Assembly (NCBI GenBank): GCA_965198115.1
Contig: OZ240241.1
Location: 6,560,001 to 6,624,000 of the forward strand
Direction of reading: 5' to 3'
Length of the DNA: 64,000 nucleotides
Source: Candidatus Latescibacterota bacterium
GTDB taxonomy: Bacteria > Latescibacterota > UBA2968
Positions within the stretch are counted from its first letter, which is position 1, and each line of letters starts with the position of its first letter. The notes under the pieces were generated by a model. It made no database searches, had not been told where the DNA came from, and worked only from the letters and a program-made list of their open reading frames with translations. Both the position numbers and the translations under genes were made by a program. Positions 27,702 through 45,699 of this stretch are shown here, in pieces.

Positions 27702-27774
27702 GGGCAGAGTCTCCTATGACAAACAAGGTGAAGGAAGTCGAAAGGCAGGTGGAATATAGCGGGGAAACGCGGCG

Positions 27775-27802
27775 GAATGCAAAATGCAAAGCGCAGAACG
27801 AA
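27775..27802. repeat. Heptamer array (AATGCA family)
   Basis: gaatgca aaatgca aagcgca gaacgaa. Confidence 0.55.
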
Positions 27803-27882
27803 ACCGGCTAATGTTTATCGGAGATCGAGCGCGTGTGGAACGATCGCAGCAGGACGATGTGTCACCTGCGCGATCGTGGTGC

Positions 27883-29181
27883 TCAGTTGCCGAGGGCGCT
27901 TAGGAAGGAATCTGCGTTGTCCAGCTCGGCCTTCCCAGCATCGACGAGCACATCCATGCCGCGACTCTGGAGGGAGAAGCGATCCAGGGCTTCGCTGTCG
28001 TAGTCGGGAACCTGGTCGTCGCCACCCGAACCGAATTCGAGCTGACGACAGATGATGTCGGCGATATGAATGATACAGACCAGGCGCGCGTATCGTCGAC
28101 AGTCGCCGGGCGAGTGATGATGAAGAATCGTGTTGAGGTAGTGGTCGGAGAACTTCCATTCCTGTGCGAGTTGACCTCCCACTTCGGCGTGGGAGAGACC
28201 GAGAATCTTTTGCTCCGATTCGTATAGGCTCAGGCCTGCAGATTCGATGGTCTGGAAGACGGCCTGATAGTAGTCGCCGAAGTAACGGTCGAGGATGATT
28301 TTGCCCAAATCGTGGAGCATTCCGGCGAGGAAGGACGTTTCGACCTCGGTTTGTAACTTCTGGGCGCACGCCCGTGCGATGAAGGCCGTCCCGACTGAGT
28401 GACGCCAGAACTCCTTCAGGTCGAGACCTCCTCCGTCTTCGTAGTTCCCGAGCTTTTCGAAGACCTGGGCAGCCATGACCAGGTTGGCTACCTCCTCCAG
28501 CCCGAGAAGGGTCACGGCGAGGGCAATCGAATTGGTCGGTTTCTTGAAGCCGTAGTAGGAAGAGTTGACCAGCTTGAATACCGTGGCCAGAAGCCCAGGG
28601 TCGAGCTGGAGCTGTTGGGCAATGTCGTCGCTGGACGAATCGTCGCTTTTTGCGAGCTTGAGGATCTCGGCGTGGGTGGCCGGAAAAGAGGGCAGTCCTT
28701 CGATCGACTTGACCCGGGTGAGGAAATCTTCGCCCTCCTCATCGCTCGGGTCTTCCTGGATCGCCTCGTCGTCCGAATCGGCGGGCGTGCCGTTCTGCGG
28801 AGCGGGCGCCAGCTGCGCGAGCGCAGACTCGATTCGAGTACGAAGATCGCTGGGTTTGAAAGGTTTCGCGAGGTAGGAGGAAGCGCCTGCTTTGGCTGCC
28901 TGGATGATGGTGTCGGGGGACGGCTTGGCGGAGGTCAGGATGACGGGGACGTCGATGTATTTGGGGCTAATCCCGACGATTTCCGCCAGTCGGAGGCCCG
29001 AGCCCGGGATGTCCAGACCGGCCACGATGACGTTCGGCTCCTGCTCGGCCAACGTTTGAACGGCCGTGACTCCGTCGTGGGCAAGGACGGTGCCATATCT
29101 GCCGGTCAGCATTTTTGTGATGAGACCGGCAAGACGTTCTTTGTCGACGATCAGGACCTTATGGGGGAGAGTGTCTTCCAA
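27883..29181 (-). CDS. Receiver-HDOD domain protein
   Basis: N-terminal REC (YLAKPF); HDOD motifs LPSFP, FWRHS, LHDLGK. Confidence 0.92.
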   Translation of the reverse strand: MEDTLPHKVLIVDKERLAGLITKMLTGRYGTVLAHDGVTAVQTLAEQEPNVIVAGLDIPGSGLRLAEIVGISPKYIDVPVILTSAKPSPDTIIQAAKAGASSYLAKPFKPSDLRTRIESALAQLAPAPQNGTPADSDDEAIQEDPSDEEGEDFLTRVKSIEGLPSFPATHAEILKLAKSDDSSSDDIAQQLQLDPGLLATVFKLVNSSYYGFKKPTNSIALAVTLLGLEEVANLVMAAQVFEKLGNYEDGGGLDLKEFWRHSVGTAFIARACAQKLQTEVETSFLAGMLHDLGKIILDRYFGDYYQAVFQTIESAGLSLYESEQKILGLSHAEVGGQLAQEWKFSDHYLNTILHHHSPGDCRRYARLVCIIHIADIICRQLEFGSGGDDQVPDYDSEALDRFSLQSRGMDVLVDAGKAELDNADSFLSALGN

Positions 29182-29307
29182 CAGGAACCTCGGCTGACCT
29201 CCGGTCAGTATGTGCCACTATCGAAAGATGGGGTAATTTGGGGGAAAAATTTGCGATTCGCAACGTATTTATAGCAGAAATTTGTGTCCTAACCGGCAAA
29301 GACCGTC

Positions 29308-30094
29308 TTAGGATGTGGGTTTTCGAGGGCCGAGTACCTGGAAGACTTTAGCGATCAACGAGGGGGCGTCGAAGGGTTTGGCGAGGAACCCCGGCCAGTC
29401 CGAGGGCCTGCCGGACGTTGTCTTTTGATGGGTCGCCAGTCAGGATGATGATGGGCACGGTGACGGTGTCGGGATCGGATCTGATTCTGCGACATATCCC
29501 GAACCCGTCCATGTTGGGCAGGTTGAGGTCGGTTACGATCACGTCGGGAGTCGCGTTCTTTACGTGCTGGATCGCTGACTCGCCGTCGTTGAAAGTCGTT
29601 ACGTGGATACCGCGGAGCGTCAGCGCTTTTTCGATCGCCAGGACAATGGAAGGATCGTCGTCGATGGCCACCGCTTCGGATTGCCGGCCGAGGTTCTGGG
29701 CGAACAGGAGGGCGCGAAGCATGGCTTCCAGACGAGAGCTCTCGATCGGTTTGATGAGATATCCGTCGGCCTTTCGGTCGAACAGGATGGACTCCCCCTC
29801 CTGGGGGACATACCCGGTCATGATGACGACCACCGGCGGCTTTTCCTTCTTCTTCAGCTCTGTAAGGACCTGCCAGCCATTCATTTCGGGCATCGCCAGA
29901 TCGATGAGCACGAGGTCGAATTGGTGCTTGTCGAACTGACGAATGGCCGAGGCCCCACTGGTCGTCATGGCGGCTCGGAAACCCTTGGTTGCGACGAGTT
30001 GGGCCACGGATTTGGCCACTTCGGGCTCGTCGTCCACGACGAGGACGCGGAAATCTTTGGGCTCGTGGAGCCGTTTTTTGGGTTCTTCGCTCAT
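29308..30094 (-). CDS. Tandem receiver (REC-REC) response regulator, frameshifted near 29392
   Basis: Two REC domains; the canonical GFLAKPFD tail lies in another frame ending at 29308. Confidence 0.85.
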
Positions 30095-30099
30095 GATAG

Positions 30100-32454
30100 T
30101 ACGAATACAGCTTCGATCGTCAGCACCAAAAGGTCGACCGAATCTATCGATTGATAAGTGAGGTCCGAAATGAGGATGGAAGCTCGTCGTTCAGTTCAGC
30201 TACGCGAGGACCCGTTGCACCCGCATTACAGGACAGGTTTCCCGGAATCGAGGAGACCGTCCGGTTCTGGCCTAAACGTGTTTGGGTTCAGGTCGGCGAG
30301 AAGGGATTCGATCTGATTGCCTGTCTGGCCGATTCAAACCTGCTACGTGTCTTTTCGATGCCACTTGAGATAGGCGACCCCACCGTCGCGCTCGCCGAAC
30401 CGAATGGCATCATCATTTCAAGAAGCATGGCAACAAAGTTCTTCGGCGACGCCAACCCCATCGGTAAGACGCTGGATCTTCAGGATAGTCGGTATTTCAC
30501 GGGTGAATACCGTGTCGCCGCCGTCATGGAAGACACCCCGACTACGGCCTCCTATCCCTTTCCGTTCGACTGCGTCTTCTCGACCCTGCCCAAGACCGTT
30601 ATGCCACGACGCTACTGGGAGAATTACGTTCCTTCAGAGCATATCCAATCTTATCTGCTCCTTCAGCCCGAGACCAGTATAGATCGCCTGTCCGCGAAGC
30701 TCGAAGACTTCGTACCCGATTTCCTGATTCCGGAAGCAGCGGCGGTCACACGGTATCGCCTGCAGCCACTCGACCGGGTCCATCTCCACTCCACATCCGA
30801 CTACCCGAACATCCTTACGGGGTCAATCAGAGGCGCACCCTACGGCAACGCCCGAACGGTCTACTTCCTTTCGACGGCAGCCTGTCTGATCCTTTTCGTC
30901 GCCGCCATCAACTTCGTCAATCTCACGACGGCCCGCGCGACCCGGAGGGCTAGAGAGGTGGGTGTTCGCAAAGCCGTTGGGGCGCCACGACGTCAATTGA
31001 TCCGTCAGTATCTGACAGAGTCCGTTTTCATGGCTTTGCTTTCCGGTACTCTGGCTGTCGGTCTGATCGAACTGGGCGTTCGCGTTCTGACCCGCTTCTT
31101 CGAATTGCCACCTGGGATGGCGGAGACCGGGAACGTTCCGCTCATGCTACTACCCACCTGCATCGTGGTCGGACTCGTTGCCGGCTGCTATCCGGCCTTC
31201 TACCTTTCCGCGTTCGATCCGGTACGTGTATTGAAGGGCTCGACACAGACCGGGGACACCCGGTCCAGAGCAAGGAGCGGGCTTGTCCTCGCTCAATTCG
31301 CGATCTCTATCCTTCTATTGATCGGGACCCTGACGGTCGCTCAACAGATGCACTTCATCTTCCACAAGGACCTCGGATTCGACAGAGATCACGTCGTCGT
31401 CACGGACATTTTCAGACGGGATCCCGATCGCACACTACTGCGGCGCTACGATGTGGTGAAGCAGGAAATGTTGAAGCACCCCGATGTGCTGGGAGCAACC
31501 GGCTACAAGCTTCGGTTGGGTCTGGGCGAACAAGGCAGCCTTGGCGATGTGCGCAGGATAAAGGATCTCGCTACCGGCGAATGGTATCAGATGGGAAGCA
31601 TTGTCATCGACGACCATTTCCTGCAGACGATGGGAACGCGATTGCTCGACGGGCGTAACCTCGACCGTCTCGAGGATGCGCTGTTCACGGGAGCTCCCGA
31701 TGAGCCGGGTGCCTACGACCTTGAAAACGAGAAGGTTGCCATCTTACTGAACGAATCCGCCGTTCGCCGATTCGGATTCGAGAATCCACTGGGCATGACC
31801 TTCGACATGGGATTCAGGAACACAGTAGCCTCCGTCGTCGGCATCGTGGAGGACTTTCACATGGGATCGCTCCACGAGGAGATTGGTCCCATGTTCCTGT
31901 TTAAATGGCCCCAGCAGTACAAGGGGCTCATGATCCGGATCCGCGGTCGAAGCATCGAACAGACGATGGCCTACCTGAACGCCACGTGGGACAGATTCGT
32001 TCCTGAACGTTCGTCGGATTTCGTATTTCTCGACGACGGAATCAGCGCGCTTTACGCATCCGACTTCCGCTTCTCCAGACTGGTTGGCGGCTTCGCGACC
32101 CTGGCGAACATCATAGCCTGCCTCGGCCTCGTTGGTCTCGTCGCCTTCGCCGTCGAACAGCGCGTCAAAGAAGTCGGCATCCGTCGCGTTCTCGGAGCGT
32201 CCTCCCACAACATCGTTCGCCTCTTCACCGACGACTTCGCCCGCCTCATCGTCGTCGCAAACGTCATCGCCTGGCCGCTTGGTTATCATGTCATGAACCG
32301 CTGGCTCGAACGCTTCGCCTACCGCATCGAGCTCGACTGGACCCTCTTTGCCCTCAGCGGCGTCATCGTCCTCGCTGTTGCCGTCATCACCATGCTCTAC
32401 GGCGGGCTGCGCGCGGCTCAGACGCAGCCCACCGTGGCCCTTCGGAACGAATAG
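30100..32454 (+). pseudogene. MacB/FtsX-type ABC permease lacking its first 42 residues
   Basis: Homology begins abruptly at YEYSFDRQHQKVDRIYRL after a stop; EVGVRKAVGA and EVGIRRVLGA repeats. Confidence 0.85.
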
Positions 32455-32473
32455 CCGAAGTTACAATCTCCCA

Positions 32474-32992
32474 ATGCTCCGCAATCAACTCCTCGTCGCT
32501 ATCCGATACCTGCTCAGTCACAAGGTCTACTCAGCCATCAACATCTTCGGCCTTGCCGTGGGACTGGTGGCCAGCACCGTCATCTTCTCCTGGATCCGCC
32601 ACGAGCTAAGCTACGACCAGCATCACAAGAAGCTCGATCGCATCTATCGCGTCATCCGAGCCGATCGATCCGAGACCGGCCACGTGATCTTCGGCACCGG
32701 CGACGTCGGACGGCGTATCCGTCGCGCCCTCGGGGCCTCGACACGCAACATCCTCCGTCTGTTCACAACCAAGTTCGTGGCTCTCATCGTCGTCGCGAAC
32801 CTGATCGCGTGGCCGGCGGCGTGGATCGTCATGAACGCCTGGCTCGACCGCTTCGCCTATCACATAGATCTCGGCCCGGCGACATTCGCAGTCGCTGGGC
32901 TCACCGTCCTCATCATCGCATCGATTACCATGGGCATCCAGGCGTTCCGCGCTGCGATGGCACGACCTGTCGAGGCGTTGCGACAGGCGTAG
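32474..32992 (+). pseudogene. Internally deleted MacB/FtsX permease paralog
   Basis: N-terminal ~75 aa joined near 32700 to the last ~90 aa (IRRALGAS...PVEALRQA). Confidence 0.8.
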
Positions 32993-33239
32993 GCCTCTCC
33001 AGGACGGCCGGGGCTGGTGGAACATTCCCACGGCCGGACAATACTTCTCCTTCTTCGACTCCTGCTGCTTTCCTATCGACCTTGTCTGCCACACAGACTC
33101 GATCGCCCAGACCCTGAGCAGGCCGGACGATTGAACCGTCGTCCGGCCTACTCTCATGTTGGTGTATGATCACAGTTTAGGAGGTGTCACGTTTGGATTC
33201 AACCACGTGCCCAGAACCGTCCTCGGCGGCTTGCCGTCG

Positions 33240-33255
33240 TGTGATCTATATCACA
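33240..33255. promoter_or_regulatory. CRP/FNR-family operator
   Basis: TGTGA-TCTATA-TCACA. Confidence 0.65.
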
Positions 33256-33298
33256 ACTACATACATAAACAACGATTTATAACAAAAACTTGAAACTA

Positions 33299-33313
33299 TG
33301 GTACGTAACGTGC
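33299..33313 (+). promoter_or_regulatory. Putative sigma54 -24/-12 promoter
   Basis: TGGTACG-TAAC-GTGC, GG-N10-GC spacing. Confidence 0.55.
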
Positions 33314-33369
33314 GTAGAAGAAGAGCGACGCCGGATGGACCGGTCGCTCTTCTTCGAAAGGACAGGAAA

Positions 33370-33762
33370 GTGAGCACCCTCGCCTACGACCCCACCATCA
33401 TTCGCCCGCCCTTCGTTCTCGACTTTACCGACTCCGGGCGACTCGTTTTCGAGTTCCCAACCCAACATCCGATGAGTCAGCACGGTTCGGTCAATACGAG
33501 CTTGTCCGGAGGCGCCTACACGGTGACTTTTCCGGCTTCTACAGTCGTCACGATTCCCTCAGGGAATATCCAACCCACGGTCAATGGTGAGGAGATCGAC
33601 CTCGATCCGTCCTGCGGTCTGATCATCAATCTCCTCCGAGGGGGAACGATCACCACCCCGAGTGGGCAGACGGACGGAGTCCTTCTCCACCCGAAGGAAA
33701 TCCAGGTCGACGGATTCGCCGCCAGCGTGACGGCTGCGTCTTGTGCGGAGTTCGCTCTGTAG
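33370..33762 (+). CDS. Hypothetical beta-rich protein, paralog A
   Basis: 43/62 aa identical to paralog B in the core; GTG start after AGGA. Confidence 0.75.
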   Translation: MSTLAYDPTIIRPPFVLDFTDSGRLVFEFPTQHPMSQHGSVNTSLSGGAYTVTFPASTVVTIPSGNIQPTVNGEEIDLDPSCGLIINLLRGGTITTPSGQTDGVLLHPKEIQVDGFAASVTAASCAEFAL

Positions 33763-34072
33763 CATTTGCACCGAATCGTCTGCGGAATAAGACCCCACCT
33801 GAGTTTCGCGGGTTCCTATCACGACACTCCGATCTTCGATCACATCACCGGCCAAGCAGAAGGAAGTCCACTCTGGCTGTTTATCCCATCAGCTCGCATC
33901 CTCACAACGGGTAGCCCCGCAGAGACCCCTACTTCGCACACAGCCCTCCACGATTCGCGCAACCTTACGCAAGATCACGCACGCCTTCTTGATTGCGTAA
34001 CTTGACCACCCACCAGGATAACATTGTCATAACAAGTTAAAAAACAGCCCTTTATAAATTTCACATCTCGAT

Positions 34073-34087
34073 TGGTACGGTCTGTGC
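34073..34087 (+). promoter_or_regulatory. Putative sigma54 -24/-12 promoter
   Basis: TGGTACG-GTCT-GTGC, same variant as 33299. Confidence 0.55.
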
Positions 34088-34134
34088 AAATGTCACACGC
34101 ATTGCTGACTGACATCCAATTGAAAGGGCTGCCC

Positions 34135-34539
34135 GTGGACGCCTTAGATCTCACAACTTCGATCGTAAGACCGCCCATCGTCCTCGACTTTACCGAGTCG
34201 GGACGAATCATCCTCGAGTTTCCCACCCAGCATCCGATCAGCAACCACGACTCGATCTGCACCGCGCTATCCGCCGGAACCTACACAATCACTTTCCCGG
34301 CGGCGTCGGTTCTGACTATTCCGTCGGGGAATGTCGAACCCACAGTCAACGGCTTTACGCCCCAGCTCAATCCATTCTCCGGTGTCATCATCCATCTACC
34401 CCAGGGTGGCTCCGTCAGCACTCCGAGCAGCCAAAACAGCGGGCCGATCTCCCAGCTGAGACCCATCCACATTCTCGGCCCTGCCGCCAAAGTCACTGCT
34501 TCAACATCGTCCGCAATACTGAATGGAACCCAATCCTAA
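34135..34539 (+). CDS. Hypothetical beta-rich protein, paralog B
   Basis: Paralog of 33370-33762; start uncertain. Confidence 0.75.
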   Translation: MDALDLTTSIVRPPIVLDFTESGRIILEFPTQHPISNHDSICTALSAGTYTITFPAASVLTIPSGNVEPTVNGFTPQLNPFSGVIIHLPQGGSVSTPSSQNSGPISQLRPIHILGPAAKVTASTSSAILNGTQS

Positions 34540-35401
34540 CCCACAGAGAACGGTCGTGCGATTGGGTTGGGTCTGTTCTCTCACCGTCGCGTTGACTGCT
34601 TCACCGGCCAAGGCCGACACCAAAGATGGTCTCACACGACTCTCTTTCGATCACGGCATCGGTGACACGATCGAAGCCGTCGAGTGCAGGCAATACGGAA
34701 TCTTGACCGACGTGGACGGCCTGGTCTGGACCGCCTTTTACAGACGTGACGACGGTCAGATTTTCCAGGAAATAGCGACAGTAGGTGGAGATGGTCGTGA
34801 GCACCGGGAGTTGCACGGTGTCTCGCCAACAGGACTCGTTCTGCTCGAGAACGATTTGAATCGCCGACACGACCCCGAATCTGCACGCGTCAGAGTGCGA
34901 CAGGGCAGGCGATACAAGGAACCGGCTTCTCAATGTGGAAAGATCGAATTGACAGTCGCGACGGGCTATTTCTGGTTGGGAACGAAGGTGGCTGGCCGGC
35001 CAAATCAGGGAGGTCCAACCTGGAGCGGGTCGGTGGAGTACTACCTGTCCAGATCACATCAGGTCGGTCTGCGATACACCCACGCGACATTCGATCGACG
35101 CACGTTCAAATCGTGTGCGGTCAGCCTGACCCATCAATTTGGCAATAGGTGGGTCGCGCCGTATGTCGGTGCGGGGGTAGGCGTGCAATCGGCAGGAGCA
35201 GTCGTACACCGGGCCAAACCCATGCTCGTCTGGGCCCTGGGCATTCGGACACGTGTAATAGTCTCCTGGTTCGTGGAACTAAGACCGTTGGGCGTCTTGG
35301 ACAGCGACGTAGACGATCGATCGTCCCTGACAAGCTGGGGTCAGATCTCGACCGGCTTGGGCCTGAGGTTGGGCAGGACGAGGAAGGAAACGTCCCGGTG
35401 A
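34523..35401 (+). CDS. Exported protein with a C-terminal outer-membrane beta-barrel-like domain
   Basis: Signal peptide ending AKA; PYVGAGVG; terminal alternating strand. Confidence 0.6.
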   Translation: MEPNPNPQRTVVRLGWVCSLTVALTASPAKADTKDGLTRLSFDHGIGDTIEAVECRQYGILTDVDGLVWTAFYRRDDGQIFQEIATVGGDGREHRELHGVSPTGLVLLENDLNRRHDPESARVRVRQGRRYKEPASQCGKIELTVATGYFWLGTKVAGRPNQGGPTWSGSVEYYLSRSHQVGLRYTHATFDRRTFKSCAVSLTHQFGNRWVAPYVGAGVGVQSAGAVVHRAKPMLVWALGIRTRVIVSWFVELRPLGVLDSDVDDRSSLTSWGQISTGLGLRLGRTRKETSR

Positions 35402-35934
35402 CCAAACGCACGTTTCTGCCGGTTGGCACCTGGGCACGAATGGGGCTATTCCTGCTCGCACTCTCAGGCATCCGATGTGATCCGGGTGGAGAACCGCTCG
35501 CCTCATCTCGGGCTCTCGTCCGGTATCTCAATACGAACGTTGCGTTGACTGATGTTGACTACACATTTACCCCCAGGCCAAATACTTTGAATCAGGGCCC
35601 CTCGCTTTCTACCCGCATTAAAAACACCGGTGACGTTGATGTTCCACGTGCGGTGGAGCGCACCACCTTCTACCTGAACGTCGATCTTCTCGACCAGGGC
35701 GGACGTATCTTAAGCGTCTGCCGCGCGCAAGTCCCCAGCATCCTCCACGGCCAAACAATCTGGATCATCACCCAGTGCCAGCGATCGACAAACGCCCCTA
35801 CCAGCTATGATCCAGCGAATCTCGAAGCTATCAAAAGTTGGAAACACACCTTCTCATCGCACACAAGCTCGTCGGGTTCAGGATGCTACTACGCCGTAAC
35901 TTCTCACGTTGACGAGGAACTGGACCCCCTCTGA
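35398..35934 (+). CDS. Hypothetical (lipo)protein
   Basis: GTGA overlap with the upstream stop; hydrophobic segment followed by Cys. Confidence 0.55.
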   Translation: MTKRTFLPVGTWARMGLFLLALSGIRCDPGGEPLASSRALVRYLNTNVALTDVDYTFTPRPNTLNQGPSLSTRIKNTGDVDVPRAVERTTFYLNVDLLDQGGRILSVCRAQVPSILHGQTIWIITQCQRSTNAPTSYDPANLEAIKSWKHTFSSHTSSSGSGCYYAVTSHVDEELDPL

Positions 35935-36103
35935 CCCTTTCTTGAACCGAATACCGAAGTTCACAGGCAGCTTTGTTCTATTTCAATGCTGGTTTAGGCC
36001 GGCGTTCACAGGCACTGTGGCGAAGGGCCTTTCGTCCTCTGCCATCTGCCGTAGGGCGAAGTTCTCTCCGCCGACCGCCCACAGCAACCGCCGACGGAGT
36101 CCG

Positions 36104-37264
36104 CTACAAGTAGGGCACCGGCTTCGGATCCAACCATCGAACCAGCCGTTCTTTGATCGCCCACGCAAAGAAGAAATTCCCTCGCGGCGTGTGGTGGCCG
36201 ATGTAGAACGGCTTCAAGTATTCGTCCACCTCCAGGCGATGACGCGAATAGTCCTCACGAAACGCGTCTCGTAGATCGATCCAGTCCACGTCGGCCGTGG
36301 CAAGCCAGTCGAGAAACGTTTGGTCGAACAGCGGCTTTCCTTCCAGCGCATCTCTCACACTGCGACTGCTGAACGACAGCAGCACCAAGAGCTTCTTTCC
36401 ATTCGAATCGCAAAACGTCTTTGCTTTCTCGATCACGTGGCGTGTGGCGAGCAGGGCCGCTTCCGTCTGCGCCTGATACACGACCGCATCGGAACTCGCG
36501 TTCGCCAGCGCATCCGCCCCGAAGGCTTTGGCCGCTGTCCGGACGTCGCCCTTGCCCTCTCGAGCCATCACCGCGTGTAGCATCGGATCCTCCCGGAACG
36601 TCTCCCATACCCACGTCTCGTCGCACAGACGATACAGATCCTCCGGCATCGAACACAGGTTTTCCCGCTCCTCACACGTTCCCGAATCGAGGTTGACACG
36701 CAGATGGGGTAATGTGAACCGTCCCTGCCCCCCCGAGCGAATCGACCGCCACGCGTCGAGGTTCCTGAAGTGATCGTCATCCCACACATTCAGGATGACA
36801 TACTCGGCCGGATGCGTCGCCTCCGTCACCAGCATCCGCCGATACGCCTGGTAAACGCTATAGCCCCCAATGCCGTAGTTTCGAATCGGCTCCTGCAGGT
36901 GGGCCGCCAAATATTCCTGCCACGTCTCCCCATCGCTCACCTGATCGCAATGTGTGAAGCTGTTTCCATAGGTATGTATTCGACAATCCCTATCCAGAAA
37001 GTTCACCACACGACGAGCTCCATCCTCGGGATCGTAGGCATAAAATCCTTTGGACCCATCCACGCTCCCTCCGTGAAACCCGTCGCACAGGACCCAACCC
37101 AACTCTGCATCAAACGTCGATTTGGCATTGTTGCACATAATGCCGCCCAGATCCCTTGGGACATCGAGCGTCGCATCGTGCCGCATCGCGAAATGGTCCA
37201 CCATCTCCCGCGTCGGCATGATGGATCGAAGGTAATCTCTCGCTTCTTCACTCATATCTGCCAT
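36104..37264 (-). CDS. SGNH/GDSL-hydrolase-like protein
   Basis: YGNSFT block I, NYGIGGY block II, GHHTPRGN block V. Confidence 0.7.
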   Translation of the reverse strand: MADMSEEARDYLRSIMPTREMVDHFAMRHDATLDVPRDLGGIMCNNAKSTFDAELGWVLCDGFHGGSVDGSKGFYAYDPEDGARRVVNFLDRDCRIHTYGNSFTHCDQVSDGETWQEYLAAHLQEPIRNYGIGGYSVYQAYRRMLVTEATHPAEYVILNVWDDDHFRNLDAWRSIRSGGQGRFTLPHLRVNLDSGTCEERENLCSMPEDLYRLCDETWVWETFREDPMLHAVMAREGKGDVRTAAKAFGADALANASSDAVVYQAQTEAALLATRHVIEKAKTFCDSNGKKLLVLLSFSSRSVRDALEGKPLFDQTFLDWLATADVDWIDLRDAFREDYSRHRLEVDEYLKPFYIGHHTPRGNFFFAWAIKERLVRWLDPKPVPYL

Positions 37265-37458
37265 CCAGTCCTTCGCCGCCAGAGGCGACTCCTACCCAAC
37301 CTTTTGCCGATGTTATGGACACGCCTGTTACGGATTCCTGGTCGGAGACCATTCCCACCGAACCAATCGCGCGAAGCTATCGCCACGCCTGCTCGCCAAC
37401 TCACCTGCTCGTCCGAAACAGGTCTGTCTTCCCCTGCCCCCTTCTCCCTGCCCTCCTG

Positions 37459-39449
37459 CTAGAAGTTGTGAAACCCGTGCCCCTCGCCCGGGAACCAGAA
37501 AATGTCGATCACCTGCGCGATTCCGATCCCGACGCAGTAGCCCACAACGGTGCCGATGAAAAACGGTTTCGCCTTTTGGTAGAGCCGGGGACCGCCTGCT
37601 CTCAGAATCACCAGTTTGGCGGCCCAGACCATCAAGATGCTCAGCGCATAGTAGCGCGGCCCCGTTGTATACTGAAAGGCCAAGCCGAGCGGATGCAGGG
37701 GCCACCACGACAAACGGGCCCGTAGGGTCGCCAACACGATCGCTTCCGTACCACCCAGAACCCAGACACCCATCTTCTGAATGTCGAAGATCGTCTTTTC
37801 AGACTCGGCCATCGCGGTCGCGATCCCTCCGAAAATCCCGAGGGGTCCTTCCCACAGGGTCCACGATCGCAGATGAAGCGCCGACTCCTGGTAGCAGTAA
37901 TAAATGATCGTCATCGCGCTGGCCACGAACGCCAACGTGAACGACCCGAAGATCACCGTCGCCACGTGTCTGCGCCCGTCCGGAGCCACATCGTCCATCA
38001 CTCTCAGATGGTGCGGAATCACCTGTAGGGTCTGTAGCCGCCCGCCGCCGAATACCGCGTTCGAATTCACCAATTGAAGCGCTGTCAGTTCCGATGTGGA
38101 CATCCCGGCTGTGCCCACCACGATTTTAAGAAAGTTGCCTCCCTTCACCCAGACCGGGTACAGGTAACCGAAACCGCTGGCTGCCATGAACTTCACCGTC
38201 GTGAAGTAGGCGATGAACATCAGAGTCATCTGTCCGATCGCGAGACCGAACGACATGCCAACGCCCATCAGAAACGCACAAACGTAGACACTGCACGCCA
38301 GAAGTCCCACGATCGCCGCCCGGTAACCGATCGGCCCATCCCCTCGCTCCCCGGAGCGGGCGCAGTGCCAGACATAGCGCAGATGCCGTCTTGCGATCCA
38401 GAGGGACCAGATCACCAGCACCGTCATCGCCCCGTGACTCTCGAGCGAAACGATCTCCGCTGCTTTCGACGGTTGCCCCTCGAGTCCAATCGTCACGCCC
38501 AGCCGATCGATCGTTCCCACCTTCAGGATGGCTAACACGCCGAAGAACCAGAACGTGAACAGGAGGTCGAGACTGCACAGATATCCCAGACCGATGACCA
38601 GAGGCAGGACACGTGCGTAAAACGGGGGAAAGTTCCTCGCGAATTCAACCGCTTTGACGCCGATGGGATCGAACAGCGTGATGCGGGGGACGTTCGGATA
38701 CCAGAAGCTGATCACATTCCACAGGATGATCCCAGCAGTCCACGCGAACCCCCACCAAAAAACGGGAGTACGAAGGATCGTCGGCAGACGCCTTCCCTCG
38801 TCGAATCCCTCCACCATATCGACCGGAAACTCGACGAGCGGATAGGTCAACCGTTCTGCATCCGCCCATTGCCGATGGAAGATGCACGATACGCAGAAGC
38901 CGGCGCCCACGAGCGCAATGGGACACGAAAACCACCACCACAGGGGTATCATCCACGCCGACCAGGGCACTATCTGGCCTTTGTCGAGCCCGTAGTAGAA
39001 GCTGTCCATCACGTGCGGTACAGGATCGGGAAACCCCCACGTAGGCAGGTAATCGAAGAACAGCTCCGCCCACCGGTTCTCGGGCGTGGCGAAAAAGTGA
39101 GGCGCCGGCAGGATCCCATGAGATACCCCATCCATCCCACCGCCGGCATCATACTCGCGATCCACGCCGTCGCGAAGATGACAAGCATCTCCGTCCTCGT
39201 GAACATCCATCGTCTGTTGACGACCCCGAGGAGGGCATTGATCGCCACCCAGATGCAGAAATACAGGATGAGTGCCACGGGGTAGCTCGACTTCACCATC
39301 GAGCTCGCGTGCAGAACGACCGACTGCAGGTTCCCCGCATAGGCGACTACGGCCGCCGTAGCCAGCCCCCACACGACGGACCGGGGCGTCACACCCCCTC
39401 TCGCCTGCGCCTTTCCGAACCGTGTGTCAATCTGCTCAGCGACTGCCAT
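37459..39449 (-). CDS. DUF6785-type polytopic membrane (putative peptide transport) protein, frameshifted at ~39116
   Basis: VPWSAW, RQWADAERLTYP, WWPLHPLG, PFFIG; N-terminus in a different frame. Confidence 0.8.
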
Positions 39450-39672
39450 GGATAGTCCGTTCCTCGGTACCCTGTCTGGATTCAACCATCTGCGTCTGCT
39501 CGCAGCCTGCTTGCAATACCCCAGGACAACCAGTCATCAGGAAAACAAACGGCCGCCGTGTACCCACGACGGACCGTGTTGTTCGACTACGATTGTCCCA
39601 AGCCAGAGGCCACGAAGTCCATTGACACACCCGCTCGCTCCTCGCCCGCTCTCCCGCTCGGTCCTGTTCGAC

Positions 39673-41060
39673 GGTGTTGTGCCTATCGTAGTTGAAACTT
39701 AGAGGGCTCCAAACTTACGTTGGGTAGACGTGTAGGAGCGTATACCCGTAAGAAAGGAGCCCAGATGGAGAAGCTATTTGTAGGCGATGGTGAAGTCAAG
39801 GTTGAGGGCGATGTCATCGATTTGGAGACGCGTTTGTCGGTGATCCAGGCGTTGATCCCGTTGGGTCTGGAGGCAGTGGCAGACCTCCTCCAGCAGGAGG
39901 TCGAGCAGCTCGCAGGCGTTCGGTATGCGCGCAAAGGTTCGGAGCAGACGCATCGTCGGTGGGGAAGCCAGAAGGGATCCGTGTATCTGATGGACCAGAA
40001 GCTCCCGTTAGACGTTCCCCGGGTGCGCGACGTCGAGGCCGACGCAGAGGTTTCCCTGGCTGCATACCGGGCTCTACAGACGCCCAAGAAGACGGACGAG
40101 GGGCTGTTGCTTCGTGTTCTCAAGGGGATCTCGTGCCGCAACTACAAGGCCTGTGCCGAATCGGTTCCAGAAGCGTTTGGTATCTCAGCGTCCTCCGTCT
40201 CGCGGCGGTTCATCAAAGCCACCGCGAAGAAGCTGAAGCAGTTCCAGGAGCGTCCCCTCGACGACTACGGCTTCGTGACCCTGTTCATTGACGGAAAGAG
40301 CTTTGCCGACGAAGAGATCGTGATCGCTCTGGGGGTCACGATGGACGGCCAGAAGATCCCCCTGGGCTTCGTCGAATCGGCGACGGAGAACGAACGGATC
40401 TGCCGCCAGCTGATCCAGGACCTCATCCGGAGAGGCCTGTGCTACGACCAGGGCCTTCTCGTTGTGCTTGACGGCTCAAAGGGACTCCGCAGTGCTGTCA
40501 CCAAAGCCCTCAAAGGGTATGTGCGCGTGCATCGCTGTCAGTGGCACAAGCGCGAGAATGTCGTCAGCTATCTCCCGGAGAGGGAACGTCCAAGAGTTCG
40601 ACGGAAGCTCCAGAAAGCCTATGACTGCGACACCTACGAGGAGGCAAAGGCCGCACTCGAATCACTTAAACCCGAACTGAAGCTGATGAATCAGTCTGCC
40701 GTAACGAGCCTCGAGGAAGGCCTGGAGGAAACCCTGACCCTCCACCGGCTGGGTATGCTCCCATTCCTGAAACGAAGCTTCCGAACCACCAACTGCATCG
40801 AAGCCCTCAACAGCAGGACCGGCGAGCTCACTCGGAAGGTCAGACGCTGGAACAACTCTCCCCAGAGACACAGATGGGTGGCTGCCGCACTCCTCGACAT
40901 CGAACCTCGCCTGCGACGCGTGAGCGGATACAAACATCTTCCCCTACTCAGGCAAGCACTGAACAAAGATCTGAATCTCGACAACGAACAGAATGCTCAA
41001 AAGAGAGCCTGACCAAACTACGGGGCCCGATGAGTTTTCAACTGACTATGGGACTTGACC
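39673..41060 (+). mobile_element. IS256-family insertion sequence, complete
   Basis: 9-bp target duplication CTGTTCGAC (39664-39672, 41061-41069); imperfect terminal IRs sharing AGTTGAAA. Confidence 0.93.
39765..41012 (+). CDS. IS256-family transposase
   Basis: FIDGK, LDGSKGL, RCQWHKREN, TTNCIE. Confidence 0.95.
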   Translation: MEKLFVGDGEVKVEGDVIDLETRLSVIQALIPLGLEAVADLLQQEVEQLAGVRYARKGSEQTHRRWGSQKGSVYLMDQKLPLDVPRVRDVEADAEVSLAAYRALQTPKKTDEGLLLRVLKGISCRNYKACAESVPEAFGISASSVSRRFIKATAKKLKQFQERPLDDYGFVTLFIDGKSFADEEIVIALGVTMDGQKIPLGFVESATENERICRQLIQDLIRRGLCYDQGLLVVLDGSKGLRSAVTKALKGYVRVHRCQWHKRENVVSYLPERERPRVRRKLQKAYDCDTYEEAKAALESLKPELKLMNQSAVTSLEEGLEETLTLHRLGMLPFLKRSFRTTNCIEALNSRTGELTRKVRRWNNSPQRHRWVAAALLDIEPRLRRVSGYKHLPLLRQALNKDLNLDNEQNAQKRA

Positions 41061-41094
41061 CTGTTCGACTCTGCCCCCTATAGTTCCTCCGCAG

Positions 41095-41925
41095 TCAATT
41101 TCCGGGCATGAATCTCCTTAAATACTCGACCGCCTTCGGCACCGCCGTCTCCTCTTCCTCCTCATCCTGACCTTCATACACGATCGACACCCAGCCGTTG
41201 TAGTTCACGCCGTTCAGGATCTTGAAAATCCGCGGATAGTCCAGCCAGGCTTCCTCGCCCGTCGATATCCGGTAAACCTTCGCACGAACGTGGACGGCGA
41301 ACGGGGCTGTTTCTTCGATACTCCCGTAGAAATTCAGGGCCGGATCTTCCCGACCGCGTTGCCCGCTCGCACCGGGCGATCCGACGTACTGACCGGTGTC
41401 CAAAATGTGCGACAAATACGGATTGTTCACGCCTTCCAGAATCCGTTTCACTTCCTTCCCCGTACGCGTCACACATCCATGGTTGTGGTTGTGCAAACCC
41501 AGAACGACGCCCTTCTCCTGACCGTAGGAAGCCACCTCATCCATACACGGCATCATCCGTTCCCACACCTGTTCCTCCGACTCACCTTCGTGAATCCACG
41601 CCGCGAAGATTCGGACCAGGGGGATCCCCAAAAACTCGGCCACGTCGACCCAGTGCTTGACGTCCGCCACGACTGCGGGCAATTCGTCCTTCGGTTTACC
41701 GAAATCATTGCTCACACCGATATACGACATCGCCAGTCCGCGCTTCAGACACCGCATCCGGATGTCACGCAAATAGGCAGGCTCTGTCGATGCGAACGCA
41801 CGCGTATGAATATCGATCCCGTCCAATCTCAGTTCATAGGCCCGATCGACGAACCCCTCCAGATCGATCTTCCCGTCCCTGAATTGATGACTGTAACTCA
41901 ACGACATACAGCCGAGCTTCATCAT
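41095..41925 (-). CDS. Sugar phosphate isomerase/epimerase (TIM barrel)
   Basis: LHNHNH, LDTG, YNGWVSIVYEG. Confidence 0.88.
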   Translation of the reverse strand: MMKLGCMSLSYSHQFRDGKIDLEGFVDRAYELRLDGIDIHTRAFASTEPAYLRDIRMRCLKRGLAMSYIGVSNDFGKPKDELPAVVADVKHWVDVAEFLGIPLVRIFAAWIHEGESEEQVWERMMPCMDEVASYGQEKGVVLGLHNHNHGCVTRTGKEVKRILEGVNNPYLSHILDTGQYVGSPGASGQRGREDPALNFYGSIEETAPFAVHVRAKVYRISTGEEAWLDYPRIFKILNGVNYNGWVSIVYEGQDEEEEETAVPKAVEYLRRFMPGN

Positions 41926-42023
41926 GACATATCCCTCCCTAGGGTAAGATCCACCGGATCAGAGGTTGCCTCGATGTATGATCCGGCAAGAACTCCATTG
42001 GCATACCCTCCGGTTCTCAGTGG

Positions 42024-43160
42024 CTAAGTTTTCTGTATTTCGCGAAGCGCTTCCAGCAACCGATCGACATCCTCACTGCCATTATGCACGTGCGTGGATA
42101 CGCGCACTCGACCGAACTCACCCCACACAAGTACACCCCGTTTGGCCAACTCGGCAGTCACCCGTTCTGCGTGTTCTACGAGGAAGCATGTGTTACCCGA
42201 TCGTCGATCCTCCTCATCAGGCGAAATAACGGTCAGACCCATGTCACGCAGCCCCTTATGCACGCTTTCGGCCAACGCTCGGTCGTGCGCCTGGATGCGT
42301 TCCCTCCCCAGACCCAGCAACGTCGCCAGCGACAGATCCAGATGCATGACCACCTGCATGGCGGGATTGCCCGGCTCCATCCGCTCCGGCATGGGCATTT
42401 CGTCCACCTCGGCGTGTCGCTCGCCCGCCTGTTTCGGCCAAACGTCGAGGTTGCGCCAGCCAAAGCACGTCGACGCCACCTGGCCCTCCGCCCGCTCGCT
42501 CAGATACGTCGGTGCGACACCGTGCGTGGCAAGCAACCACTTATATGAGCTGCTCGTCGTCAGGTCCGACAGCTCGGCATCCACCACGATCGCGCCCGCA
42601 GAGTGTGTGGCGTCCACAGCGAAAAGGGACCCATTCGCGCGCGCCGAATCGGACAATCTGGCGAGGTCGTGGCACTGCCCCGTGTAGAAACTCACGTGAC
42701 TGATCGCGAGCACGCGCGTCCGACTGTCCATCGCATCAATCAGCGCCGCTTCATCCACATACCAATCCTGATGACGCACCATCCGGATCTCCACGCCCCG
42801 GGCTTTCAAGTGTCGCCAGGCGTAGGCCACCGAGGGAAACTCGAGATTCGTCGTAACGACGTTGTCACCCTCGCGCCAATCGAGCCCGCGCGCGAACCAA
42901 CCCATGCCCTCCGCTGCGGACGGCATCAGTGCAATACGTTTGCCGGGGACATCCCATAGCTCACCCACGCGATTGCGACAGGTCTCGCCTCGGTCGTAGA
43001 TCGTCGCGCGGCCCGTGTGGCTCTCCCCCTTCAGGCGGGCAAACTCGTCGTAGACCTCTTCCTGCGCCCGCAACCACGGACCTTCTCCGCCTGTACACAG
43101 ATGCGCCACCCCATCGATCCCGACGAAGGCGTCTGGCGACAGCAACGAGTCAATCTTCAT
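42024..43160 (-). CDS. Aminotransferase class V (PLP enzyme)
   Basis: EFPSV, VDATHS, SYKWL, VRVSTH. Confidence 0.92.
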   Translation of the reverse strand: MKIDSLLSPDAFVGIDGVAHLCTGGEGPWLRAQEEVYDEFARLKGESHTGRATIYDRGETCRNRVGELWDVPGKRIALMPSAAEGMGWFARGLDWREGDNVVTTNLEFPSVAYAWRHLKARGVEIRMVRHQDWYVDEAALIDAMDSRTRVLAISHVSFYTGQCHDLARLSDSARANGSLFAVDATHSAGAIVVDAELSDLTTSSSYKWLLATHGVAPTYLSERAEGQVASTCFGWRNLDVWPKQAGERHAEVDEMPMPERMEPGNPAMQVVMHLDLSLATLLGLGRERIQAHDRALAESVHKGLRDMGLTVISPDEEDRRSGNTCFLVEHAERVTAELAKRGVLVWGEFGRVRVSTHVHNGSEDVDRLLEALREIQKT

Positions 43161-43224
43161 ACGAATCGTTTCCCTGAGGTCCGCTATCTTCAGCCTAAGC
43201 AAACCCAAACGCCGGCTGTCGACT

Positions 43225-43255
43225 CTGAACCACCGAACACTGAACACCGAACACC
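43225..43255 (+). repeat. Degenerate GAACACC array
   Basis: ctgaaccaccgaacactgaacaccgaacacc. Confidence 0.75.
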
Positions 43256-43397
43256 CCGTACGCGCCAGCGGACGGAACGGCCAATATAGCCGCGGCTCCC
43301 CACCGTCACAAACGCACCGATTTGCTTTGACAGCGCAAGACACGGGTCACACATTTAGCAACGTCACCGGTATCATTCATCAGCCCATCGAAGCACA

Positions 43398-43522
43398 TCG
43401 AACCCAGGTGAAGATCAGCGCGCTGGCGGCGAGGCAATTGCCAGACCGAAGATGTTGATGGCCGAATAGACCTTGTGGCGAAGCAGATATCGGATGGCTA
43501 CGAGGAGCTGATTTCGGAGCAT
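43398..43522 (-). pseudogene. N-terminal 42-codon fragment of a MacB/FtsX permease
   Basis: MLRNQLLVAIRYLLRHKVYSAINIFGLAI-(1-nt deletion)-LAASALIFTWVR. Confidence 0.85.
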
Positions 43523-43578
43523 GACGAGGTCCCCTGCTTGAAATGCGCAGCCTGAACAAAGAGATAGATACACTGTCA

Positions 43579-43594
43579 GGCAATGCCTGTGCCA
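43579..43594 (-). promoter_or_regulatory. Sigma54 -24/-12 promoter
   Basis: TGGCACAGGCATTGCC on the minus strand, 57 bp upstream of the ATG at 43522. Confidence 0.75.
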
Positions 43595-43657
43595 CACCTT
43601 ATTTTGCCCGTTTTCGAGTGATTCCGCGCCTCGGATTGTCCGATTGTGGGACGACAC

Positions 43658-43673
43658 TGTCCGCGAACGGACA
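43658..43673. promoter_or_regulatory. Palindromic enhancer-like site
   Basis: TGTCCG-CGAA-CGGACA (TGT-N10-ACA). Confidence 0.5.
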
Positions 43674-43786
43674 TTCGCGGACGTCATCTGGCCGATGCAC
43701 GGTTCGCTAGGCAGAAATAGGAAAAGGGCGACCGTCTCAGTTATCGACGATCGCCCTTCGGATGAGGTTTCGAACAGGGTGTGGTT

Positions 43787-44101
43787 TCAGTCCTCCAGGA
43801 CCTCCGTCACGCGCATCCCGAAGATCGACTTTGCCCGCGATGGCCATTGTCTTCCGTGTGTCGTTCCTCCCGGCACGTCGACGACGACCACCTCTCCTCG
43901 GGCGACGAGGGCATCATTCGCACGAAGGTCGGCCGTGTAGTGACCGTCCTGATTCAGTTTCGAGTCGGGGAGTTCGATCAGCGAACCTTCGGAACAGATC
44001 ATGAAGAAGTCGATTGGGAGTCTCCTCCGACCCAACTCGATTCGGACATCCGTAGGAACATCTGATGCCGCACTCTCGGTCTGTTTCGTTTCTTCGGACA
44101 C
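43787..44101 (-). CDS. FliN/SpoA-like protein
   Basis: VRIELGR, LVARGEVVVV, FGMRVTEV. Confidence 0.8.
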   Translation of the reverse strand: MSEETKQTESAASDVPTDVRIELGRRRLPIDFFMICSEGSLIELPDSKLNQDGHYTADLRANDALVARGEVVVVDVPGGTTHGRQWPSRAKSIFGMRVTEVLED

Positions 44102-44112
44102 GACTCTTCCTC

Positions 44113-45369
44113 CTACATCAGTGGTTCGCGTTCGCCTCTGACGACCACAATCTTTCCGTTGGCGTCGAGGTCCCGAACGATATAGACGATCTTAATCTGA
44201 ACATCTTCGACATCGCCGACTCGAACCATTCCAAGTCCGGCGGCCGCCGATTCGTAGGCCTTCTGTCTGTCTTCACTGAGATTCTCGACGAATCGACGTG
44301 TGATCCTTTCTTCAGCGCCCCGGAGGGCAAGCGCCAGATCCTCGGGATCGGTCTCATTCAGGACCGCCCTGAGATCGCTGTCGGCAAGGTTGGCGATGTC
44401 GTTAAAAGTGAACATCTGTAGCCGGACCTTTTCGGCCAGATCTGCATCTACGTCGTCGAGCGTTTCCAGGCACGCCTTTTCTGTCGAGCGTCCCGAGTAA
44501 TTCAAAATCTGCGCGAGAACTTCCGGTCCTCCGGTCGACGTGCTGCCCGAAGTCAGTGCGTCTATCTCCTCGGCGAGATTCTCCTCCAGACGCTGCATGA
44601 CTTCAGGAGATACGCGCTCGAGCGTGGCGATTCTACCCGTGACGTCACTTTGGATCTTCTCGGGCAATCCATTCAGAATAGCCGCGGCTTTCAGGCTGTC
44701 GATCTGGGAAAGAATCAGCGCGAGGGTTTGAGGGTGTTCCTTTTGAAATTTGGAGATCAGCTGCTCGTGATCGATATCATTCATGCGTCGGAACACTTCA
44801 CCCGTTGTTCCCTTGATTTCGGCCATCAACGCGAATCGTCGATTGCCACGAGCGCTGTAAAGGAAGCCGTGGACAAAGTCGCCACCCCCTCGTGAGCCGA
44901 CGTTTCCTCCGACGAGACACGCTCTTGCTTCCTCGATGACTTCCACTTTCCGCGTTGCGGGAATCGATTTCACGTCGAGGATGTATGCGGAAACTGCACG
45001 CAGATCATCGTCATCGCAATGCTGAAAGACTCTCCCTGCGAGGAGCGGCCCGAGATGCATTGCGACGATTGCGGCCCGTTCGAGGCCTTCCTGCCCGATC
45101 TCGGTGCCCGTTCGCGTCGCATCCAGGAAATCCTGAAGCAGGCGGGCGACAAGGCTCGGTTGCCGCTCGGCAATCTGCTCGAGCGAGTCGTCAGGGGCGA
45201 TCGTGTCGCTGACGGGCGTCGCCCATTTCGAAGGAACCGCGGCCTCTTCGGGCCGGGAAGCACTTCGTGCCGTTTGACGATCCGGATGAAGATGAAAGTC
45301 CATAGGTGGAGCCTCACCGGATACGTTCAGGACGGGTGGCTGCCAAGTCTGGACAGAGGATTCGGACAT
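44113..45369 (-). CDS. fliG: FliG-like flagellar switch protein with extended N-terminus
   Basis: RAAIV..LG, EHPQ, MFTF, VRVGDVE. Confidence 0.85.
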   Translation of the reverse strand: MSESSVQTWQPPVLNVSGEAPPMDFHLHPDRQTARSASRPEEAAVPSKWATPVSDTIAPDDSLEQIAERQPSLVARLLQDFLDATRTGTEIGQEGLERAAIVAMHLGPLLAGRVFQHCDDDDLRAVSAYILDVKSIPATRKVEVIEEARACLVGGNVGSRGGGDFVHGFLYSARGNRRFALMAEIKGTTGEVFRRMNDIDHEQLISKFQKEHPQTLALILSQIDSLKAAAILNGLPEKIQSDVTGRIATLERVSPEVMQRLEENLAEEIDALTSGSTSTGGPEVLAQILNYSGRSTEKACLETLDDVDADLAEKVRLQMFTFNDIANLADSDLRAVLNETDPEDLALALRGAEERITRRFVENLSEDRQKAYESAAAGLGMVRVGDVEDVQIKIVYIVRDLDANGKIVVVRGEREPLM

Positions 45370-45388
45370 GGTGTGCCTCGTCTTGGCG

Positions 45389-45679
45389 TCAGGATTTTGG
45401 AAAACCGTTAACACGAATGGCCAGGTTGTCGCCTACAACGACGACTTCGCCGAAGCAGAAGAGACGACCATTTGCGAGCACTTCGACAGGTGTTCCGGTC
45501 AGCTTGTCGGTCTCGATCAGATCGCCGCTGTTGACGCTCAGGACTTCTTCGATCGTCATGCGTGCCTCTCCGAGCACGACGACCACGTCGAGTTCGGCGC
45601 TGCCAATCCGCCCGAGTCTCGATTCGACATCGGGGAGCCAGTTCGGATCGATCCGTTCTTGGGTGGCTGATTCTGCCAT
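45389..45679 (-). CDS. fliN: Flagellar switch protein FliN-like
   Basis: LDVVVVLGEARMTI, PVEVLANG, GEVVVV. Confidence 0.85.
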   Translation of the reverse strand: MAESATQERIDPNWLPDVESRLGRIGSAELDVVVVLGEARMTIEEVLSVNSGDLIETDKLTGTPVEVLANGRLFCFGEVVVVGDNLAIRVNGFPKS

Positions 45680-45699
45680 TGGATTCTCCTGGATGCAGT

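What the first reader, a model, noticed from the sequence alone, without database searches (positions are those of the whole stretch)
30100..43397. 13.3-kb inversion cutting an ABC permease into exactly complementary halves
Seen: the minus-strand fragment 43522-43398 encodes residues 1-42 ending FTWVR (with one 1-nt deletion). The plus-strand remnant starts at 30100 with YEYSFDRQHQKVDRIYRL. The paralog at 32474 reads FSWIR-HELSYDQHHKKLDRIYRV, so the halves join with no gap or overlap (TGG GTT CGA|TAC GAA). Flipping the segment restores an ~826-aa permease behind a sigma54 promoter and gives an upstream region back to the regulator at 30094, which now has only 5 bp before the remnant. An inverted 8-mer GCTTCGAT lies near both ends (30110-30117, 43387-43394). 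No invertase or long IR is visible. Inference: a fixed rearrangement, an intragenic on/off inversion, or an assembly chimera.
Basis: partly seen in the sequence, partly recalled or inferred. Interest (0 to 1): 0.8.

Follow-up and report, generated by a model that had tools for sequence, protein, structure and literature searches.

The report
Fixed inversion scar splitting transporter gene
In this transposon-crowded bacterial genome a 13.3-kb piece of chromosome is flipped and cuts an ABC-transporter gene cleanly in two, likely a one-off accident in which two unrelated DNA breaks were rejoined the wrong way round, not a genetic on/off switch.

Summary
The inversion is real and derived in this genome. 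Public-run contigs cross both junctions with no difference (possibly the source sample). A congener has the flipped-back gene order. GC skew is reversed in 7 of 7 genes inside against 7 of 7 outside. An intact 826-aa orthologue joins the two halves in exactly this register.

It is not a switch. There are no inverted repeats and no nearby recombinase, only one orientation is seen, and the front half carries a frameshift, so flipping back would not restore the protein. The junctions share one base; the 8-mer is out of register and about chance level. No IS or target duplication lies at either end, although IS-linked breaks are common here (29 of 68 synteny ends).

Best reading: a homology-independent reciprocal break-and-rejoin, enzyme unknown, in a decaying genome. 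The one notable lead is an intact IEE-like primase-helicase elsewhere in the genome, which could erase IS traces. The scan has noted similar one-off gene-splitting inversions on other DNA. Ordinary; interest low.

The parts
30100..43397 (.). Inverted segment, 13,298 bp; ends ambiguous by one shared T
43398..43522 (-). 5' fragment (codons 1-42) of a MacB/FtsX-type ABC permease, with a 1-nt deletion near 43434-43435; as it stands it gives a 35-aa peptide
30100..32454 (+). 3' remnant of the same permease (codons 43-826), stop-free, without its start codon, first membrane helix or promoter; PF12704 and PF02687
43580..43594 (-). sigma54-type consensus 58 nt before the permease ATG; now points into the aminotransferase gene cluster
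   Evidence: rpoN domain present
29348..30094 (-). Double-receiver response regulator, cut from its upstream region 5 bp before the ATG; about 5-nt deletion frameshift near its 3' end
32474..32992 (+). Internally deleted paralogous permease (about 79 N-terminal residues joined in frame to the last about 90)
39673..41060 (+). IS256-family element inside the segment with its own intact 9-bp target duplication; a passenger, absent at this place in G001
36104..43166 (-). Gene run carried by the inversion: class-V aminotransferase (43166-42024), xylose-isomerase-like TIM barrel (41925-41095), frameshifted DUF6785/6784 gene, and a 386-aa gene of no Pfam family; in G001 this run faces away from the regulator
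43283..43311 (-). sigma70-like site upstream of the aminotransferase, inside the segment, in a stretch 83% identical to G001
30110..30117 (+). 8-mer copy, 10 nt inside the left end; likely chance
43387..43394 (-). 8-mer copy, 3 nt inside the right end; likely chance

Best explanation
A 13.3-kb chromosomal segment is inverted in this genome, with one end in codon 42/43 of an ABC permease gene and the other 5 bp upstream of a response-regulator gene, and it likely arose once, by a homology-independent reciprocal break-and-rejoin that then became fixed. Shown: the orientation, its derived state, the exact register in the permease, at most one shared base at the junctions, and no IS or repeat at the ends. 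Inferred: two nearby DNA breaks were rejoined crosswise, most plausibly by exchange between two topoisomerase (gyrase) cleavage complexes or by Ku-independent end joining; the enzyme is not identified. Predicted effects: the permease is dead; the regulator and the genes behind the remnant lose their upstream regions; the permease's putative sigma54 promoter now reads towards the aminotransferase cluster. Fixation was likely by drift in a genome that is losing genes.
For: Contigs of X1 and X2 span 27539-39700 and 41032-46800 with 0 differences and 0 gaps; none of the 11 joints listed links the two ends. No loose end lies at the left junction. G001 has the regulator next to the aminotransferase, back to back; this is the only local inversion along its 316-kb contig C60. 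Four-fold-site GC skew is positive in 7 of 7 genes outside and negative in 7 of 7 inside, whichever strand they are on. The G001 block has skew like its flanks, and 2 of 4187 genome windows show such an island, both at this locus. Orthologue P0002 is 826 aa; the front piece matches it at 38 of 41 residues and the remnant at 87.8%. The two parental sites are identical at only 2 of 10 and 20 of 80 positions in register. Decay background: 13.7% of the genome lies in repeats of 3 or more copies, and 67 of about 855 well-covered G001 orthologues are frameshifted here. Gyrase-linked illegitimate recombination independent of homologous recombination is described in PMC11164529 (passages).
Against: The ancestral sequence at the regulator end is not available, because G001 has a deletion there; a few bases lost or gained there cannot be excluded, and with them an IS history. 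A clean gyrase subunit exchange would be expected (my own reasoning from its 4-nt stagger) to leave a 4-nt duplication or loss, and the permease side shows none or at most one base. Ku is absent. The inversions confirmed in PMC3411829 had 12 bp or more of junction homology (passages), though that screen selected for homology. X1 and X2 are one sample and may be the genome's source; contigs drop rare variants. The front 41 residues match paralogue P0004 as well as P0002 (38 of 41 each), so they alone do not fix the parent gene.
Confidence: 0.65

Rival explanations
1. The inversion was IS-driven (recombination between two inverted IS copies, or intramolecular transposition), and both IS copies were later removed without trace by the genome's IEE-like primase-helicase.
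For: 29 of 68 synteny-block ends against G001 have an IS within 1 kb, against 9% of random points (a few of the 68 are not true rearrangements). The one other real split gene found has IS at both breaks. 33 of 126 and 9 of 30 full copies of two IS256 families lack their own target duplication. An intact 835-aa AEP-TOTE plus SF2-helicase gene is present, the domain layout of IEE (PMC9943667 passages), which excises circle-forming IS elements (10.1101/2023.06.07.543989 passages).
Against: This route should leave the 8-9-bp target duplicated at both junctions; the permease shows no duplicated or lost codon, so two exact trims would be needed. The short target motifs seen for the IS630-, ISAzo13- and IS1182-like families (family names recalled) are absent from both parental sites. 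The nearest IS is 2.3 kb inside and keeps its own duplication. IEE activity was not tested.
Confidence: 0.15
2. A replication template switch guided by the 8-mer or by TTCGAT microhomologies inverted the segment and shifted the junctions by slippage.
For: The 8-mer is present near both ends (chance 0.02-0.05), and TTCGATG is tandemly repeated at the right junction.
Against: Exchange at the 8-mer would put the permease 7 nt out of register with P0002; the real cut shares one base; the test was post hoc.
Confidence: 0.12
3. A reversible recombinase-driven on/off switch (partial-intergenic inverton).
For: The exchange looks conservative, and the genome has 19 tyrosine-recombinase and 6 resolvase matches over cut-off.
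Against: No inverted repeats. The nearest tyrosine recombinase is 180 kb away and the nearest resolvase 1.8 Mb away. No IS110 recombinase was found. Only one orientation is seen. The ON form would stop after 35 residues because of the frameshift.
Confidence: 0.04
4. An assembly chimera.
For: The synteny and skew reversal would look the same for a misassembly, and the supporting runs may be the source sample.
Against: Separately assembled 12.2-kb, 10.7-kb and 6.6-kb contigs cross the junctions with 0 differences at about 9-14x, and no alternative contig end exists at the left junction.
Confidence: 0.02

Closest known systems
Spontaneous bacterial inversions by illegitimate recombination (Salmonella survey PMC3411829; gyrase-mediated illegitimate recombination, PMC11164529)
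   Same: One-off, not programmed, no recombinase site, breaks a gene
   Different: The inversions confirmed in PMC3411829 had 12-18 bp of junction homology; here there is one base. No enzyme is identified, and no 4-nt gyrase footprint is seen.
IS-mediated inversions in IS-expanded, decaying genomes (general knowledge; seen elsewhere in this genome)
   Same: Same genomic setting: hundreds of IS copies, frameshifted genes, a shuffled chromosome with 62 skew segments
   Different: No IS, IS end or target duplication at either junction
Intragenic and partial-intergenic invertons (PMC10028968)
   Same: An inversion boundary lies inside a gene and truncates it
   Different: Invertons are defined by flanking inverted repeats and reads in both orientations; neither is present, and the restored gene would be frameshifted
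MacB/FtsX-family duplicated ABC permeases (PF12704 + PF02687; ADOP-like)
   Same: Domain content and a length of about 800 aa; many paralogues in this genome
   Different: Broken here; P0002 scores below the ADOP (TIGR03434) and MacB cut-offs, so substrate and subfamily are unassigned

Membership tests
Inverton / phase-variable inversion | Inverted repeats bounding the segment | tested here: not met
   No exact arm of 11 nt or more within 500 nt of both ends; 2 of 10 identity in register
Inverton / phase-variable inversion | Both orientations in the population | tested here: inconclusive
   Only one orientation in contigs of one sample at about 10x; contigs drop rare variants; no raw reads offered
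Inverton / phase-variable inversion | A linked site-specific recombinase | tested here: not met
   Nearest tyrosine recombinase 180 kb away, nearest resolvase 1.8 Mb away; unlinked invertases are not excluded
Inverton / phase-variable inversion | A functional ON state | tested here: not met
   1-nt deletion in the front fragment, also in the run contigs
IS-mediated inversion | IS copy or IS end at the junctions | tested here: not met
   Nearest IS-masked bases are 9.6 kb from the left junction and 2.3 kb from the right, both the internal IS256
IS-mediated inversion | Target duplication swapped between the junctions | tested here: not met
   No duplicated bases beyond one T
IS-mediated inversion with later excision | An IS-excision enhancer in the genome | tested here: inconclusive
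   IEE-like domain layout present and intact; orthology and activity not tested
IS110 bridge-recombinase inversion | DEDD IS110 recombinase in the genome | tested here: not met
   0 matches to PF01548
Microhomology-mediated inversion | Short inverted homology at the crossover itself | tested here: not met
   One shared base; the 8-mer is offset by 10 and 3 nt
Ku/LigD end joining | Ku gene | tested here: not met
   0 matches to PF02735 in a genome rated 100% complete
Gyrase-mediated illegitimate recombination | Joining without sequence homology | tested here: met
Gyrase-mediated illegitimate recombination | Breaks at gyrase cleavage sites with a 4-nt stagger | not testable with these tools
   The ancestral regulator-side sequence is unknown (G001 deleted there); no cleavage map exists
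Assembly chimera | Junctions absent from separately assembled data | tested here: not met
MacB/FtsX ABC permease | MacB_PCD plus two FtsX domains | tested here: met
   PF12704 and PF02687 (two stretches) above cut-off

The most novel reading that the evidence does not exclude
An IEE-like primase-helicase working with this genome's hundreds of IS elements makes scarless inversions: IS-driven rearrangements whose elements and target duplications are then erased, or transposase-made breaks joined crosswise. This locus would be a base-exact natural record of such an event, and IS-driven rearrangement would be undercounted in IS-rich genomes.
Probability: 0.12. Interest if true: 0.55.

Novelty: new member of a known kind. 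Interest (0 to 1): 0.17.

Why it matters
It matters little for biology at large: gene-breaking inversions are expected in IS-rich, decaying genomes. Its modest value is as an unusually clean natural case with both reciprocal junctions readable to the base, one base of homology and no IS, in a genome where many breaks are IS-linked. It also warns annotators that the 767-aa permease called here lacks its start, first membrane helix and promoter.

Tried and rejected
1. Close relatives with DNA over the intact locus: the metagenome scan (4 loci, 26-31% identity), the genome scan (5 loci, 26-32%) and the family search (31 genomes, best non-self 40%) found none. P0002's DNA could not be fetched. G001 lacks this permease (best match 39%).
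2. Run X3 covers neither junction usefully.
3. Aminotransferase loci of G005, G009 and G012 are too short or lack the regulator, so they do not polarise the event.
4. A class of similar IS-free inversions: skew segmentation gave 61 boundaries, 29 within 1 kb of an IS and 19 with none within 3 kb. I fetched 5 candidate regions and tested 4 against G001; none had usable synteny. The fifth was not tested. In 1.63 of about 5.6 Mb of G001, 1465 ORFs gave 2 split calls: one IS-flanked, one an overlap artefact. No class is shown.
5. An IS630-type TA footprint was considered because the left junction holds two TA steps; it was rejected because the right junction does not match and the family's targets are absent.
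6. A sigma54 motif upstream of paralogues: 0 of 19, so no family support for that promoter.
7. Literature: searches found 0 and 1 papers (the one not read) on repeat-free gene-splitting inversions. These narrow searches do not show absence from print. One search (a guessed lineage and habitat) gave nothing used. PMC11372144 held none of the terms sought.
Full report
Observation. The window is G000:C1:6560001-6624000 of a single-contig 8.43-Mb genome. On the minus strand, 43522-43398 encodes the start of an ABC permease in 125 nt, one base short of 42 codons, with the frame break near 43434-43435. As it stands it yields a 35-residue peptide. On the plus strand, 30100-32454 is a stop-free 784-codon frame with MacB_PCD and FtsX domains. 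The regulator ATG lies at 30094, five bases from this remnant. Of four full-length regulator homologues fetched, the two closest (84% and 82%) begin with the same MSEE start, so the regulator's coding start is intact and only its upstream region was cut away.

The halves belong together. The best non-self hit of the remnant among 2200 hits is P0002, 826 aa, 87% identical; 42 plus 784 is 826. In the alignment the front fragment fills P0002 positions 1-42 and the remnant starts at 43, with no gap or overlap. The front fragment matches P0002 at 38 of 41 readable residues. It matches paralogue P0004 equally (38 of 41), whereas the remnant is 87.8% to P0002 and 72% to P0004. The short piece alone therefore cannot name its parent, but both pieces are jointly best explained by P0002. 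Several close paralogues share contig lengths in the cluster listing, which suggests arrays in relatives; this was not checked on DNA.

The inversion is real. Two public runs of one sample hold the stretch. Their contigs span 27539-39700 (12,162 nt, depth 9-10) and 41032 to beyond 46800 (depth 11-14) with no substitutions or gaps. This confirms both junctions and also the frameshifts in the front fragment, the regulator and the DUF6785 gene. None of the 11 joints listed links the two ends, and a narrow look at the left junction shows no loose end there. These runs may be the genome's source, and contigs drop rare variants, so a small minority orientation is not excluded.

It is derived in this lineage. 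In the congener G001 the regulator and the aminotransferase are neighbours, back to back, as a flip predicts. Along the 316-kb contig C60 this is the only local inversion, besides one large IS-flanked break. G001 lacks this permease and has a deletion over the regulator's 5' end, so it cannot give the ancestral bases. Independently, GC skew at four-fold sites on the plus strand is positive in 7 of 7 genes tested outside and negative in 7 of 7 inside, regardless of gene strand. The G001 block (0.139) matches its flanks (0.12, 0.107). Only 2 of 4187 genome-wide windows show such an island at the threshold used, both at this locus (profile). The skew has not yet ameliorated.

Junction anatomy. 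The two parental sites share one base at the cut and are identical at 2 of 10 and 20 of 80 positions in register. No exact inverted arm of 11 nt or more lies within 500 nt of both ends. The 8-mer sits 10 nt inside one end and 3 nt inside the other. Exchange there would put the permease 7 nt out of register, and an equal match arises in 62 of 3000 (+/-20 nt) or 151 of 3000 (+/-30 nt) random site pairs. The IS256 at 39673-41060 keeps its own 9-bp duplication and is a passenger. Neither junction is repeated elsewhere in the genome apart from the paralogue match. The nearest tyrosine recombinase is 180 kb away, the nearest resolvase 1.8 Mb away; IS110 recombinase and Ku were not found.

Genomic setting. 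13.7% of the genome lies in repeats of three or more copies, with several families of tens to over a hundred copies (only the IS256 label comes from a call, other family names are recalled). Of 1465 G001 ORFs from 1.63 of about 5.6 Mb, about 855 were well covered in G000: 773 whole, 67 frameshifted, 13 interrupted, 2 called split (frameshifts outside the window were not checked against reads). 29 of 68 synteny-block ends have an IS within 1 kb, against 9% of random points, and skew segmentation gives 62 segments. This is a shuffled, decaying chromosome. G001 has also lost or broken the regulator, the HDOD gene and the fli genes here, so these functions look dispensable in the genus.

Mechanism. 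Shown: an exchange that is base-exact on the permease side, with one base of homology and no IS. Inferred: two breaks 13.3 kb apart were rejoined crosswise once. Gyrase cleavage complexes can promote recombination independent of homologous recombination, with subunit exchange proposed but not proven (PMC11164529, passages). By my own reasoning this should leave a 4-nt footprint, which is not seen on the permease side and cannot be tested on the other. End joining without Ku is the alternative. The genome carries an intact 835-aa AEP-TOTE plus SF2-helicase gene, the layout of IEE, a polymerase with microhomology end-joining activity (PMC9943667, passages). IEE promotes excision of circle-forming IS elements and extended 4- and 6-nt but not 2-nt overlaps in vitro (10.1101/2023.06.07.543989, passages). 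That keeps an IS-then-erased route open (0.15), but it needs both target duplications trimmed exactly. A switch is unlikely (0.04): invertons are defined by inverted repeats and reads in both orientations (PMC10028968, passages), and the ON state here is frameshifted. Whether the frameshift came before or after the inversion is unknown.

Predicted consequences. The permease is dead. The regulator and the genes behind the remnant lose their upstream regions. The sigma54-like site at 43594-43580 now points into the aminotransferase cluster, with no terminator-like site found in 43000-43900. An rpoN domain is present, but the motif occurs 32 times against about 20 expected and before 0 of 19 paralogues, so this promoter is unproven.

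Comparison and verdict. It works like a spontaneous illegitimate inversion. It differs from those confirmed in Salmonella, which had 12 bp or more of homology, though that screen selected for homology (PMC3411829, passages). It is not an inverton and shows no IS signature. A search for a class of such events in this genome failed for lack of synteny. Earlier notes of this scan report similar one-off gene-splitting inversions in other genomes (unchecked). No supplements were consulted. Verdict: a real, derived, apparently fixed inversion scar; a new member of a known kind; interest 0.17.

Noticed in passing
L133:2597-5104 (-), G000:C1 about 2,898,600-2,901,100: Intact 835-aa AEP-TOTE plus SF2-helicase gene with the IEE domain layout, about 5 kb from a tyrosine integrase, in a genome with hundreds of IS copies.
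   Followed up: partly
window 32474-32992 (+): Mini-permease: an in-frame internal deletion of about 640 codons of a paralogue resembling P0011, directly behind the broken permease.
   Followed up: partly
whole genome G000: Large IS expansion (13.7% in repeats of 3 or more copies) and 62 GC-skew segments; some IS copies have flanks that match another copy's flank, a sign of IS-IS recombination.
   Followed up: partly
G000:C1 about 5,364,680 and 6,892,459: A 546-aa G001 gene (C60 about 240,658) is split in G000 between two sites 1.5 Mb apart with IS at both breaks.
   Followed up: no
window 29348-29400 and about 39372-39009: Frameshifts in the response regulator and the DUF6785 gene are confirmed by run contigs; G001 has the DUF6785 gene broken at a different place.
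   Followed up: partly
G001:C60 about 33,300-33,950 and 39,470-40,300: The congener has separately lost the regulator's 5' end, the HDOD gene, fliG, fliN and the 3' part of fliM, and lacks the permease region.
   Followed up: partly
window 33298-33762 and 34072-34539 (+): Two similar adjacent ORFs of about 155 aa with no Pfam family, behind the mini-permease.
   Followed up: no
P0002 residues about 546-570: The intact orthologue has a stretch that looks like a compensated frameshift relative to the remnant and the paralogues.
   Followed up: no
G000:C1 476,800-481,400; 668,500-680,400; 5,955,800-5,963,200; 7,225,400-7,229,600: Other short skew-reversed segments with no IS within 2 kb of their ends; could be inversions or acquired islands; G001 gave no synteny.
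   Followed up: partly
window 29081-29095 (-): A second sigma54-type consensus, inside the 5' part of the HDOD ORF.
   Followed up: no
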